Shown: positions 5,901 to 51,700 of the stretch, in pieces | How the letters are laid out: each line of letters starts with the position of its first letter | How positions within the stretch are numbered: the stretch's first letter is position 1 | Source of the DNA: Fistulifera solaris | Taxonomy: Eukaryota | Assembly: GCA_030295235.1 (NCBI GenBank) | Contig: AP026125.1 | Span: 1,674,001 to 1,738,000 of the forward strand | Reading direction: 5' to 3' | Length of the DNA stretch: 64,000 nucleotides | Made by a program: the position numbers and the translations under genes | The notes under the pieces: generated by a model | The model's input: only the letters and a program-made list of their open reading frames with translations | What the model was told of the DNA's origin: nothing | Databases searched by the model: none

Positions 5901-6200
5901 GAAAAATGCAACGCTGCGAATGTCTACGTGAGACGTGAGTCGTCTTACGTAGACCTCGTAGGGAAATTTATCGACAGAGGGGTTACCCGGATATTGTGTA
6001 ACTTCGAGCACACCATTTTGGGCCGTTTCCGCACCACAATGTCATCATCATTCCACTAACATAAATCAATGATGTCAAACAATAATAAGGCGTGTCAGAT
6101 TGGTTTTAAATCTCAGAAACCATGGTACGTGCAACGCTTCGAATGTCTACGTGAATTTCACGTAGCCGCAGTAGGAAATTTATCATGTAGGGGCAACCCC
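5901..6200 (+). repeat. Dispersed repeat family A, locus 1 (two units, 223-bp spacing)
   Basis: Core TGCAACGC..CGAATGTCTACGT..ACGTAG..GTAGG(G)AAATTTATC..GGGG..ACCC at ~5905-5990 and ~6130-6200; matches copies at 28.9-29.3 kb (minus) and 51.2-51.7 kb. Confidence 0.85.
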
Positions 6201-6622
6201 AATCCTCTCTACTGGTAATTAAAACACCTCAATCTTTGGCTCCTTTCGTCTCGCGTAATACAAGGAATCTAAGGGGAATCTCGTTGCTGCAATGACTCAT
6301 GTAGCATGCGAAACTAGCACAACCAATGGCTTTCTGCTGGCAAGATGTCTCGCACAGAAGCCAATTCATGACTGAATTGCAGTCGTGAAAAAAGTAATAT
6401 AAACATAAGACATAAGCCTATAGTTCAAAATAGGAAATCATCACTGCGACATACAGTAGGACACAAGTTTGCCGCTTATTCGTTATTATTGCTTGCATTG
6501 TTTCCTCGGTCTCAACGTGCCCTTGTATGTACCAGTAATCGCAAACAAATGTATTGCTGCTAAGCCCTCATTAACAATTTGTTTTCAATAATCCCTTGCA
6601 ACGTTCCCGCGGCAGGTCTACA

Positions 6623-7798
6623 ATGCGTTCCCTGGCAGTAGCGACAGCAAGAAGATTGCAACTTCGACACCAAAGACTGACCGTACGGCAATTTTCGGCA
6701 GAGCAACGGACCGATTCATCAGCGACCGAAGATGCCAAGCGACGACAATCCGAAGCAAAGTTAGAAGCCAGGTTTCTGACTGCAAATAAACCCATTGACT
6801 TGCCTGATCCCCAGAAAGAAAAGGCATTACAACAACTACAAGTACGACTGCAGGAACTTCACAAGGCCGGAAATGCCCGAGCCGCGCTCCAAGTCGCCGA
6901 AGAAATGCACCAAGAGACAGAAAAACATCTCGGTGCGCAACATCCGGCAACGGCGTCCGCACGCTCGAATATTGGATTACAGCTCAAGCTCCTGGGCAGA
7001 TGGAACGACAGTCGTAAACAATACGAACAGGCACTCAAAATATACCGCGCGACGGTGGGTCACGATCACGCGAGCACGGCTTCCGTTCATCACAATTGGG
7101 GAACACTGTTGCGCACACAATTGCATCTGGACGACTCTCTGAGTGCCACGGACCGGTTGAGTGTTTTGGAAATGTCATTGGAGCACTTGGAAAAAGCGTA
7201 CAAAATTCGGTTGGCGGAATTGGGTGCCGAACATCCTCATACCGTGGCGAGTCGGTCGGGATGGGGCGCCTCGTTGGCGTCGCAAATATTGCAAAACTAC
7301 AAACAGACAACCAAAGGGTTGTACCGATCTATGGTTCCAGAAGAAGTGACAACGAATGGCTGGGATGCTGCGGAAGAGCACTTGCGACAAGCGTACGTCA
7401 CCGCACTGACGAATCCACGAGGACGTGGATTGCAAAATCCAAAGACGCGCGCTAAAACGAAACGACAAAAGCCGACACAACCACAACAACTCAACACGAT
7501 ACAGACCCTGTCGGCGGCTTCGGCCGGACAGAATCTAGCGCTGGTGTTAAAAGCACGAGCGGCGGTCTTGGGTGACCACGAACGACTGAACGAAGCGCGC
7601 GATTTGTACCGGCAGGTCCTGCAAGTGCGAGAGAAGCTATTGCCAGCGGACCACCCCGATTTGTATGCGACCAAATTTAGCTTGGCGGAACTATTACAAG
7701 CACAAGGTGACGAAGAAGCTGCCAATGCGATACGGCAAGAAATTGTGGATACCTATGACCCGCCAGAAAATGACGAGAATGACAATAGTACGACATGA
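6623..7798 (+). CDS. TPR-repeat protein (kinesin-light-chain-like TPR), possible mitochondrial presequence
   Basis: Repeats LGAQHPATASARSNIG, VGHDHASTASVHHNWG, LGAEHPHTVAS and LPADHPDLYATKFSLA; Arg-rich, acid-free N-terminus (MRSLAVATARRLQLRHQRLTVRQFS). Confidence 0.8.
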   Translation: MRSLAVATARRLQLRHQRLTVRQFSAEQRTDSSATEDAKRRQSEAKLEARFLTANKPIDLPDPQKEKALQQLQVRLQELHKAGNARAALQVAEEMHQETEKHLGAQHPATASARSNIGLQLKLLGRWNDSRKQYEQALKIYRATVGHDHASTASVHHNWGTLLRTQLHLDDSLSATDRLSVLEMSLEHLEKAYKIRLAELGAEHPHTVASRSGWGASLASQILQNYKQTTKGLYRSMVPEEVTTNGWDAAEEHLRQAYVTALTNPRGRGLQNPKTRAKTKRQKPTQPQQLNTIQTLSAASAGQNLALVLKARAAVLGDHERLNEARDLYRQVLQVREKLLPADHPDLYATKFSLAELLQAQGDEEAANAIRQEIVDTYDPPENDENDNSTT

Positions 7799-7885
7799 TA
7801 TTAAAAAAAGTAATCAATGATATAAACAACATAGACCTAGAGTATAAGGTTCTATTAAAGTGCCGTGCAAGAGTAAATGTCTGAA

Positions 7886-48716: not shown

Positions 48717-48976
48717 TGCTCACGCTTCCAGCCTCGGCATTTCTGATTGAATGAAAAGTATCATCATCATCATGGTGTTGATCTCTTGTGGTGCAATGAC
48801 AAAACATCATCATAGCTGTGCGACATGCGGCACCCATGTCCGATCGGATATTTATGTCGTACAGGTATGCACTAGATCATTCTCTCTAGTAAAGAAAAAA
48901 GTTCATGTACGCAAAAAACCACCTAACATAATCATGAACTAAACTACGTCCTACGCATTCTAATACAAACGAACTA

Positions 48977-50885
48977 TTATACTCCGTAGTCACTTCGGTA
49001 TTGCGCAACACTTCGTCTCGTCTCATCGTCGTATCCGGGATGTTGGTCCAAAAACGACTGGAGTTGAGGTAAATTCACAATAGAAACAACGTTCAGGCCC
49101 AAGTCTCTCTCCACCGCTTGCACGGCTGAAATCTTGTCTTCTGTAGACCGAATCTCGGCCCGATCAAGAGCTATGACAACTCCTATTGGTTCTGCATTCA
49201 CCGCTTTCAGCAGATTGTACGACTCGCGAATGGCAGTACCCGCGGTGATGACATCATCAATAACAAGCACCCTCTTTCCGTCCATGCTCGCGCCTACCAG
49301 AGTACCACCTTCACCATGATCTTTCGCTTCCTTACGATTGTAAGCAAAACCAATGTCAACACCGAAATCGTTGTAAAGGGCGCTGGCCACGACCGCCCCC
49401 AACGATATGCCTTTATATGCAGGGCCGAAGAGCACATCAAACTTTAAGTGGCCGGATGGGTCAACGCTGTGTTTAATAAGGAAAAAGTAAATGTTAGTCA
49501 TGGTATCAAGACATACATGTAACATGGGAGCTTTTGAGTACGAAAAACGTTTTGATCTCAGAAATCTATCGAATCAGCGATTTGGTGTTGACCGGCATCT
49601 TCCAAAAGGAATTAGGTGAAAGAAGACCAAGAAGTCATCACAGATCAAATGCGTTTTCTATTTGTGGGTCAGATGCACTTGTAAAATTTGTTTCATCGCC
49701 AACTCACGTGGGGGCGGATCAATAACACGGACCAAGCGCTTTGCTCTTCATACCCATAATCGTAAACACCATCAGAGTCGGTACTTACAGTGAGGATGAA
49801 TTCATAATTGTAGATGCATAGGCCTTCCCTAATCTGAAAAGAGCTGCGCCAGTGGCAAAGAGGCCGGCGTTGAAAAAGTAAGGCGACGTTCGTCCACTTT
49901 TCAGTACGAAAGAACCGAATTTCAAAACACCTTGTTCCAGACTGAACTCCAGAAACTCCTTCTGATACGGCAAAATACTAGTTGAGCTGGGATGGGATGT
50001 TTGCTCTCGTACTTGTTTTCGACATATTTCAATTTGCTCTTGTAGCTCTTTCGCTGTCGCAGTAGGATTCTCCGCTTTGCTGATGCCACGAGAGACGGGT
50101 ATCAGCATACCTGTTCCTTCTGCGTTCAATCCGGCCTGTAGCGCCTCTGATAAGTTCCCACCTTGAGCACCGACACCGGGAGCTAATATCCACACTTTTC
50201 TCTCCCGCGGCCTTCCGTGCCGCTCGCAAAGCCACTGGATCCGTCGCACCCACCACGAGACCCAAAGTGGCCGTCGGAGCTTGGGATGACCACTTCTGAC
50301 CGACCAGCTGTGCGATGTATTCATAAAGCGTCGTATTCGATTTTAAGTCCAATTCCAAGAAATCTTTACTACCCGGATTGGACGTTTTACACAAGAAAAA
50401 TGCTCCTTTCGAGTTGTACTTTGCTGTGGACGTGAAATGAGAAATAATAACGTTATGGAAGAAGATGTGGCGCCTGCCTCACGTACCTGTGATGAAAGGA
50501 GCAACCGAGTCCCATCCCATAAGGGGCGACAGTGTTACTGCATCAGCACCAATGTGTTGATACGCAGCATCGGCATATGCCGCTGCAGTGGAGCCAATGT
50601 CCCCCCGTTTGCAATCCAAAAGGACGGGAACATCATCAGGGATCACTTCTTCGACAATACGTCTCAAAACTTTCAGACCATCGTCACCAAGGGCTTCGAA
50701 GAAAGCAGCATTAGGCTTATAGCATGCAGCATAAGGCAGAGTTTGATCAATCAGAGTCTTGCAAAGGTGAAAGCGGCGTCTGGAGTAGCGGAACCCAACT
50801 CCTGTTCGTGTGGATCAAGACCTACACACAGAAGAGAATTGATCGAAGCGACACGCTTTTCTAATTTTTCTTGAAAACTTGACAT
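48977..50885 (-). CDS. UMPS: Bifunctional UMP synthase in OMP decarboxylase - orotate PRTase order; introns 50424-50486 and 49467-49788; apparent frameshift near 50200
   Basis: [32 protein letters not shown] and PGVGAQGG (ODC), then [36 protein letters not shown] and [10 protein letters not shown] (OPRT); both introns are GT-AG and restore frame. Confidence 0.95.
49551..49649 (-). ncRNA. Intronic box C/D snoRNA with elements complementary to the LSU rRNA GAAUCAGCGGGGAAAGAAGACC region
   Basis: Minus strand: TTTGATC-T-GTGATGA...CTGA-GATCAAA (7-bp terminal stem, canonical C and D boxes); contains GGTCTTCTTTC and CGCTGATTC. Confidence 0.75.
49665..49756 (-). ncRNA. U18: Intronic box C/D snoRNA, U18 (SNORD18)-like
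   Basis: Minus strand: TGGG-T-ATGAAGA (box C variant)..CTTGGTCCGTGTT-A-TTGA (guide + D')..GCGATGA (C')..CTGA-CCCA. The guide is complementary to conserved LSU rRNA AACACGGACCAAG, the known U18 target site. Confidence 0.82.
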
Positions 50886-51220
50886 TATGCAAATGAATGA
50901 TAAGCAGGATGACAAGCCCTGCAATGGAAAGAAAATGAGACGACAGCGCGCTTTTCTCGCAGTTTTATCGCAACAATTATTATTGGCTGACGAGGGACGA
51001 GGTTGTGCTCGTCTGTCCAGCCATCCTTCTTGATGACTGAAAAATAATGCAGTCGTGAAAAAGTCGTATACACTTTTCTATATAGTCAATTTTGAATAAC
51101 GCCTGTATGGCAGAAAAGTATTACCGGCGTGATAATAATCCAATGTGGAACACCGTCTAGTCTCTTTGGCATTCAGCGCTTTCATCTTCGTGGAAATTGA
51201 CGGCAATAATCAAACGAAAG

Positions 51221-51700
51221 AAAAAATGCAACGCATCGAATGTCTACGTAACTTCACGTAGCTCTCGTAGGGAAATTTATCGACAGAGGGGGTACCCGGA
51301 TATGGTGTAATTTCGATCACATTGTTTTCGCGTCTCTTGGACACCAATGTCAACACTACTTTGCCCAACAACACTAATGCAACCGATGAAACAATAATCG
51401 ACCTTGCTTTTTACAGCGAAACATGAAACAGTAGAAAGATACAAGGCTTCCTGTGTCTACGCGTATTTTACGTAGCCGCCGTAGGAAATTTATCTCTGCA
51501 GGGGTACCCGGATATTGTGTTTTTCCCCATCATCCAATTCTGGCATCTACAGGGCACCGATGTCAATGTTTTTATGCCCACCGTGCTTGCTTCGTATCCT
51601 TTAACAATAAAAGCATCGAATTTGAGAACAAAACGTTGATGGAACGAACGATGCAACGCATCGTATGTCTACGTAATTTCACGTAGCTTCCGTAAGGAAA
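51221..51700 (+). repeat. Dispersed repeat family A, locus 3 (three units, ~212-bp spacing)
   Basis: Hairpin cores start at 51244, 51457 and 51669. The first unit is near-identical to 5901-6010 (CTCGTAGGGAAATTTATCGACAGAGGGG.TACCCGGATAT.GTGTAA.TTCGA); the second matches 6130-6200 (GCCGC.GTAGGAAATTTATC). Confidence 0.88.

What the first reader, a model, noticed from the sequence alone, without database searches (positions are those of the whole stretch)
5901..51700. Dispersed repeat family A with a structurally conserved hairpin, upstream of three metabolic genes
Seen: seven cores at three loci (5924, 6147; 28904 and a partial one at ~29205 on the minus strand; 51244, 51457, 51669), in tandem units of ~212-223 bp (288 bp at locus 2). 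The order is TGCAACG..CGAATGT, then the CTACGT-loop-ACGTAG hairpin, then GTAGG(G)AAATTTATC, then a GGG(N2-3)CCC mini-dyad. Unit 1 and unit 2 subtypes correspond between loci 1 and 3, so the multi-unit block spread as a whole, while the spacers are much more diverged than the cores. The loci sit 5' of fabI/TPR, homoserine dehydrogenase and UMPS. Inference: a non-autonomous mobile element, a structured ncRNA family, or a modular protein-binding element (ACGT cores).
Basis: partly seen in the sequence, partly recalled or inferred. Interest (0 to 1): 0.72.

Follow-up and report, generated by a model that had tools for sequence, protein, structure and literature searches.

The report
Satellite arrays riding diatom rolling-circle transposons
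The repeat is real and is most likely the cargo of a non-coding rolling-circle (Helitron-type) jumping element that scatters short tandem arrays between the genes of a diatom-like alga, not a structured RNA or a shared switch for the three neighbouring genes.

Summary
The seven cores are real. They belong to a genome-wide family of short arrays (2-14 units) built from a strictly alternating A/B dimer (213+212 nt). Twelve of 46 arrays, window locus 3 among them, begin with a terminus (short inverted-repeat box, stem-loop, ACAA|T) shared with two young deletion families and one 8.2-kb frameshifted RepHel element carrying DUF6570, an HLE2 marker. Four of four such copies tested are absent from the homoeologous contig; at locus 3, homology stops exactly at the predicted end. 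The other end is ragged. Cores are more conserved than spacers but show 0 compensatory changes in 34 altered pairs. Verdict: a non-autonomous HLE2-type element with central tandem repeats, like oyster Cg_HINEs. It differs in an A|T target, no left inverted repeat, and a fixed end on the side opposite to Helraiser's. The scan had noted this family elsewhere in this genome (e1-7529945); the lines shown to me give no RepHel link.

The parts
51090..51119 (-). HLE2-type 3' terminus of the locus 3 element (box, stem-loop, end before T); 3 mismatches to the pattern of the coding-derived elements
   Evidence: only such site in the window; homology with contig C6 stops at 51090
51120..51224 (-). rest of the ~135-nt long leader shared by eye with 12 other arrays
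51218..51430 (+). locus 3 unit A (core 51226-51300, hairpin from 51244)
   Evidence: core 0.95, spacer 0.88 to A consensus
51431..51642 (+). locus 3 unit B (core 51439-51512)
   Evidence: core 0.97, spacer 0.84 to B consensus
51643..51701 (+). locus 3 truncated unit A; ragged end of the element
5906..6127 (+). locus 1 old A-like unit with an enlarged hairpin loop; no leader
   Evidence: a decayed core lies at the same place in C6
6129..6199 (+). locus 1 second core, intermediate between A and B
28865..28940 (-). locus 2 intact core (old copy, also in C6)
29089..29229 (-). locus 2 core split by a later insertion
29108..29184 (.). 77-nt inverted-repeat (MITE-like) element inserted into the core; a different family
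   Evidence: absent from C6; copies in L032, L041, L055

Best explanation
Family A is a non-autonomous Helitron-like element of the HLE2 type whose body is a tandem array of an A/B dimer. Shown: the dimer and its dispersal; a leader ending in the same box + stem-loop + ACAA|T terminus as a RepHel-coding element and two of its deletion families; absence of such copies at homoeologous sites. Inferred: the RepHel protein, acting in trans, recognises that terminus, joins it precisely into an A|T site and copies a variable length of array. Copying stops imprecisely, with some preference for the in-unit CCGGA(T) site that mimics the 5' end of the coding elements, or runs on into flanking DNA. The loose end is healed with a small duplication or a loss of host DNA. 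Arrays then grow or shrink locally by whole dimers and decay. The conserved core is probably a protein-binding site that matters for being copied (inference). Loci 1 and 2 are old remnants; locus 3 is younger.
For: Terminus pattern on the leader side and correct strand in 8 of 46 arrays at <=4 mismatches versus 0 of 138 control flanks; 12 of 46 with relaxed spacing, 11 of them with the expected base at the junction. N2 (3 copies) and the 8.2-kb C36 element were found by protein similarity, not by the motif, yet carry the same end. C36 pieces hit DUF6570, Helitron_like_N, PIF1, Pif1_2B; a 1856-aa homolog at 42% identity passes Pfam cut-offs for these. Four of four leader-bearing copies tested are missing in the homoeolog. 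Same-type units are 97% identical within arrays (median) versus 78-82% between. Three loci share one leader-unit-330-nt-flank-array composite with different flanks. Precedent: oyster Cg_HINEs (PMC7492417).
Against: 34 of 46 arrays show no recognisable terminus, and 6 of the 12 that do are one young subfamily. The first pattern came from family A itself, so N1 is not an independent link. Family A has no left inverted repeat; only five letters match the 5' end of the coding elements. The C36 element holds no A/B unit and shares only its last ~35 nt with the leader. Its Pfam scores are below cut-off. One copy has a 17-nt target duplication confirmed by its empty site and another a 55-nt flanking duplication, which Helitrons are not reported to make. 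Three of four empty sites are not clean: the homoeolog holds about 90, 165 and 390 nt more. An unfiltered count finds within-array changes also depleted in cores (31 of 270 versus 28% expected), which host selection could explain.
Confidence: 0.75

Rival explanations
1. A dispersed satellite that spreads by itself (circular DNA, gene conversion, repair capture); an HLE2 end became attached once or twice and moved only a minority of arrays.
For: 34 of 46 arrays lack the terminus; strong within-array homogenisation; ragged ends and host-DNA loss at 3 of 4 empty sites; loci 1 and 2 have no leader.
Against: The leader always sits on the same side and joins unit A in the same register; about 19 arrays carry a long or short leader by eye; all four polymorphic insertions tested carry it. 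Leader-less arrays were not tested for empty sites, apart from loci 1 and 2, which are shared with C6.
Confidence: 0.12
2. A retroposon (SINE-like or Penelope-dependent) copied from the fixed end, with truncation at the other end.
For: Fixed end plus ragged end is the pattern of target-primed reverse transcription (established knowledge); 17-nt duplication flush with both ends in L057.
Against: 11 of 12 terminus-bearing copies show no duplication above background; no poly-A or simple-repeat tail; the fixed end is that of a RepHel element; no tRNA or ribozyme match. I did not search the genome for reverse transcriptases.
Confidence: 0.05
3. The cores are host-selected protein-binding sites (ACGT boxes) that regulate neighbouring genes.
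For: Hairpin arms and box are 4-6 times less diverged than spacers; within-array singletons are depleted in cores in the unfiltered and in the all-singleton filtered counts.
Against: The homoeologous UMPS gene has no array; homoeologous cores at loci 1 and 2 are decayed (24-32 bits versus 74-76). Clearly new mutations are not significantly depleted in cores (8 of 39, p 0.37; 6 of 35, p 0.19), though power is low.
Confidence: 0.06
4. An array of structured RNAs or ribozymes.
For: Two small stems in every unit; the second has a G..A loop; one copy (locus 1 unit 1) folds at z -5.3.
Against: 0 compensatory changes among 34 altered pair cells in 79 sequences; the other 4 of 5 folds have z between -0.7 and +0.8; no Rfam match over the arrays.
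Confidence: 0.02

Closest known systems
HINEs with central tandem repeats: oyster Cg_HINE (PMC7492417; passages and section 9 read), DINE-1/HINE (PMC4067079; passages read)
   Same: Non-coding rolling-circle derivative; short dispersed satellite-like arrays, mostly a few units; 3' inverted-repeat box followed by a stem-loop; monomers with motifs more conserved than the rest.
   Different: No left module with inverted repeat or microsatellite; A|T rather than T|T target; strict two-type higher-order unit; ragged far end; occasional duplication or host loss at the site.
HLE2 / Helitron2 (HELIANO, PMC11417382, passages and sections 21, 24; FoHeli, PMC5148889, passages)
   Same: The coding-derived elements here have short asymmetric inverted repeats, a 5' hairpin, a 3' stem-loop and DUF6570; FoHeli1/2 also start with TC, and some FoHelis carry repeated 5' termini.
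   Different: Insertion between A and T, 3' end ACAA; repeated 5' termini in FoHelis are short duplications, not 2-14-unit arrays.
HLE1 / Helraiser (PMC4778049; passages)
   Same: 5'-TC start and A|T target in the coding-derived elements; capture of flanking DNA; truncated copies.
   Different: No CTRR. In Helraiser the 5' end is essential and the 3' hairpin is the leaky terminator; here the 3' hairpin end is the fixed one and read-through lies on the other side.
IS91 one-ended transposition (PMC13181058; passages)
   Same: Fixed end downstream of the transposase gene, failing termination upstream, capture of adjacent DNA.
   Different: Bacterial, no helicase, tetranucleotide target; an analogy of polarity only.
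Replitrons (PMC10288648; parts 1-4 of 7 read)
   Same: One precise end, one fuzzy end, variable duplications in Replitron-1.
   Different: Defined by terminal direct repeats and a helicase-less Rep; reported as not detected in diatoms; the terminus here links to RepHel.

Membership tests
HLE2 non-autonomous element (HINE type) | A RepHel-coding partner with DUF6570 in the genome | tested here: met
   C36 element, L132:1419-9627, frameshifted; (E 1e-4 to 5e-4, under cut-off); homologs over cut-off; one copy found
HLE2 non-autonomous element (HINE type) | 3' inverted-repeat box and stem-loop shared with the partner | tested here: met
   12 of 46 arrays; 8 of 46 versus 0 of 138 controls; alignment
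HLE2 non-autonomous element (HINE type) | Matching 5' inverted repeat with hairpin | tested here: not met
   Present in N1, N2 and C36; no shared far-end module among the arrays
HLE2 non-autonomous element (HINE type) | Insertion between T and T | tested here: not met
   A|T fits 6 of 6 N1, 3 of 3 N2, C36, and the empty sites of L057 and locus 3; family A begins with TT on the core strand, so the exact cut is ambiguous by a base
HLE2 non-autonomous element (HINE type) | No target-site duplication | tested here: inconclusive
   None above background in 11 of 12 terminus-bearing arrays; 17 nt in L057; 55 nt in terminus-less L043
HLE2 non-autonomous element (HINE type) | Rep and Hel domains group with HLE2 in a tree | not tested
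   No reference set fetched; only DUF6570 and a weak Helraiser match in the helicase of homolog P0002 (E 2e-7)
Helentron in the strict sense | AP endonuclease domain | tested here: not met
   No hit in 12 C36 frames scanned or in P0002
HLE1 | 3' CTRR | tested here: not met
   Ends read ACAA
HLE1 | 5' TC and A|T target | tested here: met
   N1, N2, C36; in family A only where the array stops at CCGGA(T)
Structured ncRNA family | Compensatory base-pair changes | tested here: not met
   0 of 34 altered pair cells
Structured ncRNA family | Discrete transcript | not testable with these tools
   No listed holder is on record as RNA; only contigs were laid
Replitron | Short terminal direct repeats and a helicase-less Rep partner | tested here: inconclusive
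   No common second end to carry a repeat; no Replitron protein search was run
SINE / non-LTR retroposon | Tail at the fixed end and duplications at most insertions | tested here: not met

The most novel reading that the evidence does not exclude
This HLE2 lineage runs with IS91-like polarity, opposite to Helraiser: the stem-loop end downstream of RepHel is the origin and the ATCCG end is a leaky terminator. Family A would be an element whose terminator region was amplified into an A/B array, each unit offering a protein-bound stop site, so one-ended transposition sets array length, captures flanks on the 5' side and seeds satellites. Basis: fixed stem-loop end; 8 of 46 arrays stop within ~3 nt of CCGGA (about 1 expected; 7 of 36 by a second method); flank capture on the ragged side; a second tandem family in L115 also stops at CGGAT.
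Probability: 0.3. Interest if true: 0.7.

Novelty: new variant of a known kind. Interest (0 to 1): 0.45.

Why it matters
It ties an unclassified, abundant repeat of a compact algal genome to a named mechanism and supplies a candidate transposase, two 99%-identical deletion families and dated insertions (present or absent in the homoeolog). My literature searches listed no paper that describes such an element in a diatom; subscription journals and repeat databases were not searchable, and I opened no supplements. If the reversed polarity holds, the family gives a direct test of how HLE2 elements start and stop, for which I saw experiments only on an HLE1 element, and of how rolling-circle elements make dispersed satellites.

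Tried and rejected
Pfam family searches of the genome for Helitron_like_N and DUF6570 found nothing, although a divergent RepHel exists; they show nothing about absence. Rfam and ARAGORN gave no match on the arrays. A DNA search with the long leader returned only 7 family A loci. Helicase and Rep fragments found no second RepHel copy, so no coding element with A/B units was found. Sequencing runs: no RNA holder listed. One run whose contigs skip an intron covers UMPS exons and not the array; contigs cannot show absence, so this is not used. Summed contig depth over the core was about 270-8300 against about 11-30 beside it in two runs; the tool says this is no copy number. The idea that the 52-bp satellite is also cargo was not supported: 1 of 9 satellite clusters had an inward terminus, and that was an insertion into it. 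My prediction that new mutations fall evenly over the unit failed in the unfiltered count and was neither rejected nor shown in the filtered one. Hammerhead motifs were looked for by eye only. Gene orientation around arrays was not tested genome-wide.
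Full report
Observation. A profile built from six window cores scores those six at 55-78 bits and the seventh at 16; five shuffled windows gave nothing. The neighbouring genes are an enoyl-ACP reductase-like gene, a TPR gene, homoserine dehydrogenase and UMP synthase. The genome has 51.7 Mb in 62 contigs. 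That it is a diatom is my reading from composition and gene content, and agrees with earlier notes; I did not test it.

The family. Locus 3 as query gave 124 matches in the 40 candidates scored out of 336; these are the best matches, so my sample leans to copies like locus 3. I fetched 38 stretches, which with the window hold 46-47 arrays of 1-14 cores. Of 178 full units, 88 are type A (213 nt) and 88 type B (212 nt), 2 are outliers, and A and B alternate without exception. Same-type units are 97% identical within an array (median) and 78-82% between arrays, so arrays grow locally by whole dimers. Flanks beyond the arrays are mostly unique.

Polarity. Left ends cluster at the start of unit A, and by eye 13 of 29 aligned left flanks share a ~135-nt leader and 6 a short, internally deleted one. 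The leader's outer end is a TTGT motif, a 5-bp stem-loop and a GAAAAGT-like box. Right ends are ragged. By one method 7 of 36 stop 0-1 nt after CCCGGA (p 4e-8 against uniform), but some of these are A/B switches. A stricter count gives 8 of 46 within about 3 nt, 6 at 4-12 nt, 19 before the motif and 13 running on into the spacer. Three loci share a composite of short leader, unit, 330 nt of foreign DNA and a resumed array; the foreign piece matches the flank of a fourth locus. Capture therefore happened on the ragged side.

The partner. A pattern for the leader end found six 99%-identical elements of 1562-1570 nt (N1). Read on the other strand they start A|TCCG with a box inside a hairpin and end with the inverted box, a stem-loop and ACAA|T. 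They carry a DUF6570-like fragment (E 0.04). That fragment found a second family (N2, 3 copies, 1488 nt) and an 8.2-kb element on contig C36 with the same kind of ends. Its frameshifted pieces match DUF6570, Helitron_like_N, PIF1, Pif1_2B and UvrD_C_2 below cut-off and show HUH and helicase motifs by eye. Two unnamed homologs at 42-46% identity pass the cut-offs. HELIANO (PMC11417382, section 24) names DUF6570 as a marker of HLE2. The terminus of these elements lies on the leader side of 8 of 46 arrays at <=4 mismatches and in 0 of 138 control flanks; with relaxed spacing, 12 of 46. Six of the 12 are one subfamily, and N1 was found with a family A pattern, so the independent link rests on N2, C36 and six long-leader arrays.

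Empty sites. Contig C6 is syntenic with the window at about 87% identity. It lacks the locus 3 array, and homology stops at 51090, the predicted end; on the other side C6 has about 165 nt that the window lacks. Three more leader-bearing copies and one N2 copy are absent from their homoeologous stretches. L057 is clean and has a 17-nt duplication flush with both ends; at L039 and L045 the homoeolog holds about 90 and 390 nt more. Loci 1 and 2 have decayed cores in C6, so they predate the split of the two gene sets; the 77-nt insertion in locus 2 came later.

What the core is. No compensatory change appears among 34 altered pair cells; typical cores fold no better than shuffles. Sequence, not structure, is kept, which fits a protein-binding site. 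Differences shared by a whole array avoid the core (29 of 413, 28% expected). Singletons avoid it too when divergent units are included (31 of 270), and still in near-identical units (9 of 64, p 0.01); clearly new mutations do not do so significantly (8 of 39, p 0.37). This fits selection for being copied but does not exclude host selection.

Mechanism. Shown: dimer, leader, shared terminus, polymorphic insertions, capture. Inferred: mobilisation in trans by RepHel, precise joining of the stem-loop end at A|T, imprecise stop at the other end, repair with duplication or loss. In Helraiser the 5' end is essential and the 3' hairpin terminates (PMC4778049, passages). Here the hairpin end is fixed, as with IS91, whose origin is the right end (PMC13181058, passages). 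Loss of 5' ends during integration would give the same picture without reversed polarity, so I give the reversal 0.3.

Comparison and verdict. It works like the HINEs that carry short satellite arrays in oyster (PMC7492417) and flies (PMC4067079). It fails two defining tests of that group, the left inverted repeat and the T|T target, so I file it as a variant, not a plain member. My searches listed no description in a diatom beyond an automated helitron fraction in Thalassiosira rotula (PMC11842555, passages) and none of reversed polarity; supplements were not opened, and HELIANO's species tables may include diatoms. Earlier notes of this scan describe what looks like the same family in this genome. 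Interest 0.45.

Noticed in passing
G000:C36, L132:1419-9627: 8.2-kb frameshifted RepHel element with DUF6570, the only one found; the genome-wide Pfam family searches missed it.
   Followed up: yes
L109-L114 (N1), L133-L135 (N2): Two young deletion families, 99% identical, with both ends intact; they suggest recent activity.
   Followed up: yes
window:29108-29184; L032, L041, L055: 77-nt inverted-repeat element that itself holds CGTAG motifs like the family A core; seen at or near four arrays.
   Followed up: partly
window:29334-30321, 40050-40501, 53784-54075: 52-bp palindromic satellite arrays, one with a 367-nt higher-order unit; the first replaces the third unit of locus 2 that C6 still has.
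   Followed up: partly
L115:1540-3197: A second ~215-nt tandem family behind an N1-type terminus and family A cores; it stops at CGGAT and was seen nowhere else in 706 kb.
   Followed up: partly
L096:1500, L103:1500: Two different elements with this terminus are inserted at the same position of a 34-bp satellite unit.
   Followed up: no
L036:6047 (-), L106:1500: Further terminus-like sites without family A cores, one beside a 52-bp satellite.
   Followed up: no
window:6365-6388, 51033-51062, 51741-51775; C6 homoeologs: A TCATGA-plus-GCAGTCGTG module recurs in intergenic DNA beside the arrays and is kept in the homoeolog.
   Followed up: no
L040, L048, L055, L061, L064, N1: Frequent TA-CCAGG-TA type insertions, probably excision footprints of a TA-targeting transposon (inference).
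   Followed up: no
window:50195, 50762, 51057, 52364: Single-base indels that public contigs contradict; apparent frameshifts in window genes are probably assembly errors.
   Followed up: partly
contigs C5/C6 and C1/C2: Syntenic contig pairs at about 87% identity, as in an allopolyploid; useful as built-in empty-site controls.
   Followed up: yes
window:9895-10013 (-): A single 5S rRNA gene; another copy in L039.
   Followed up: no
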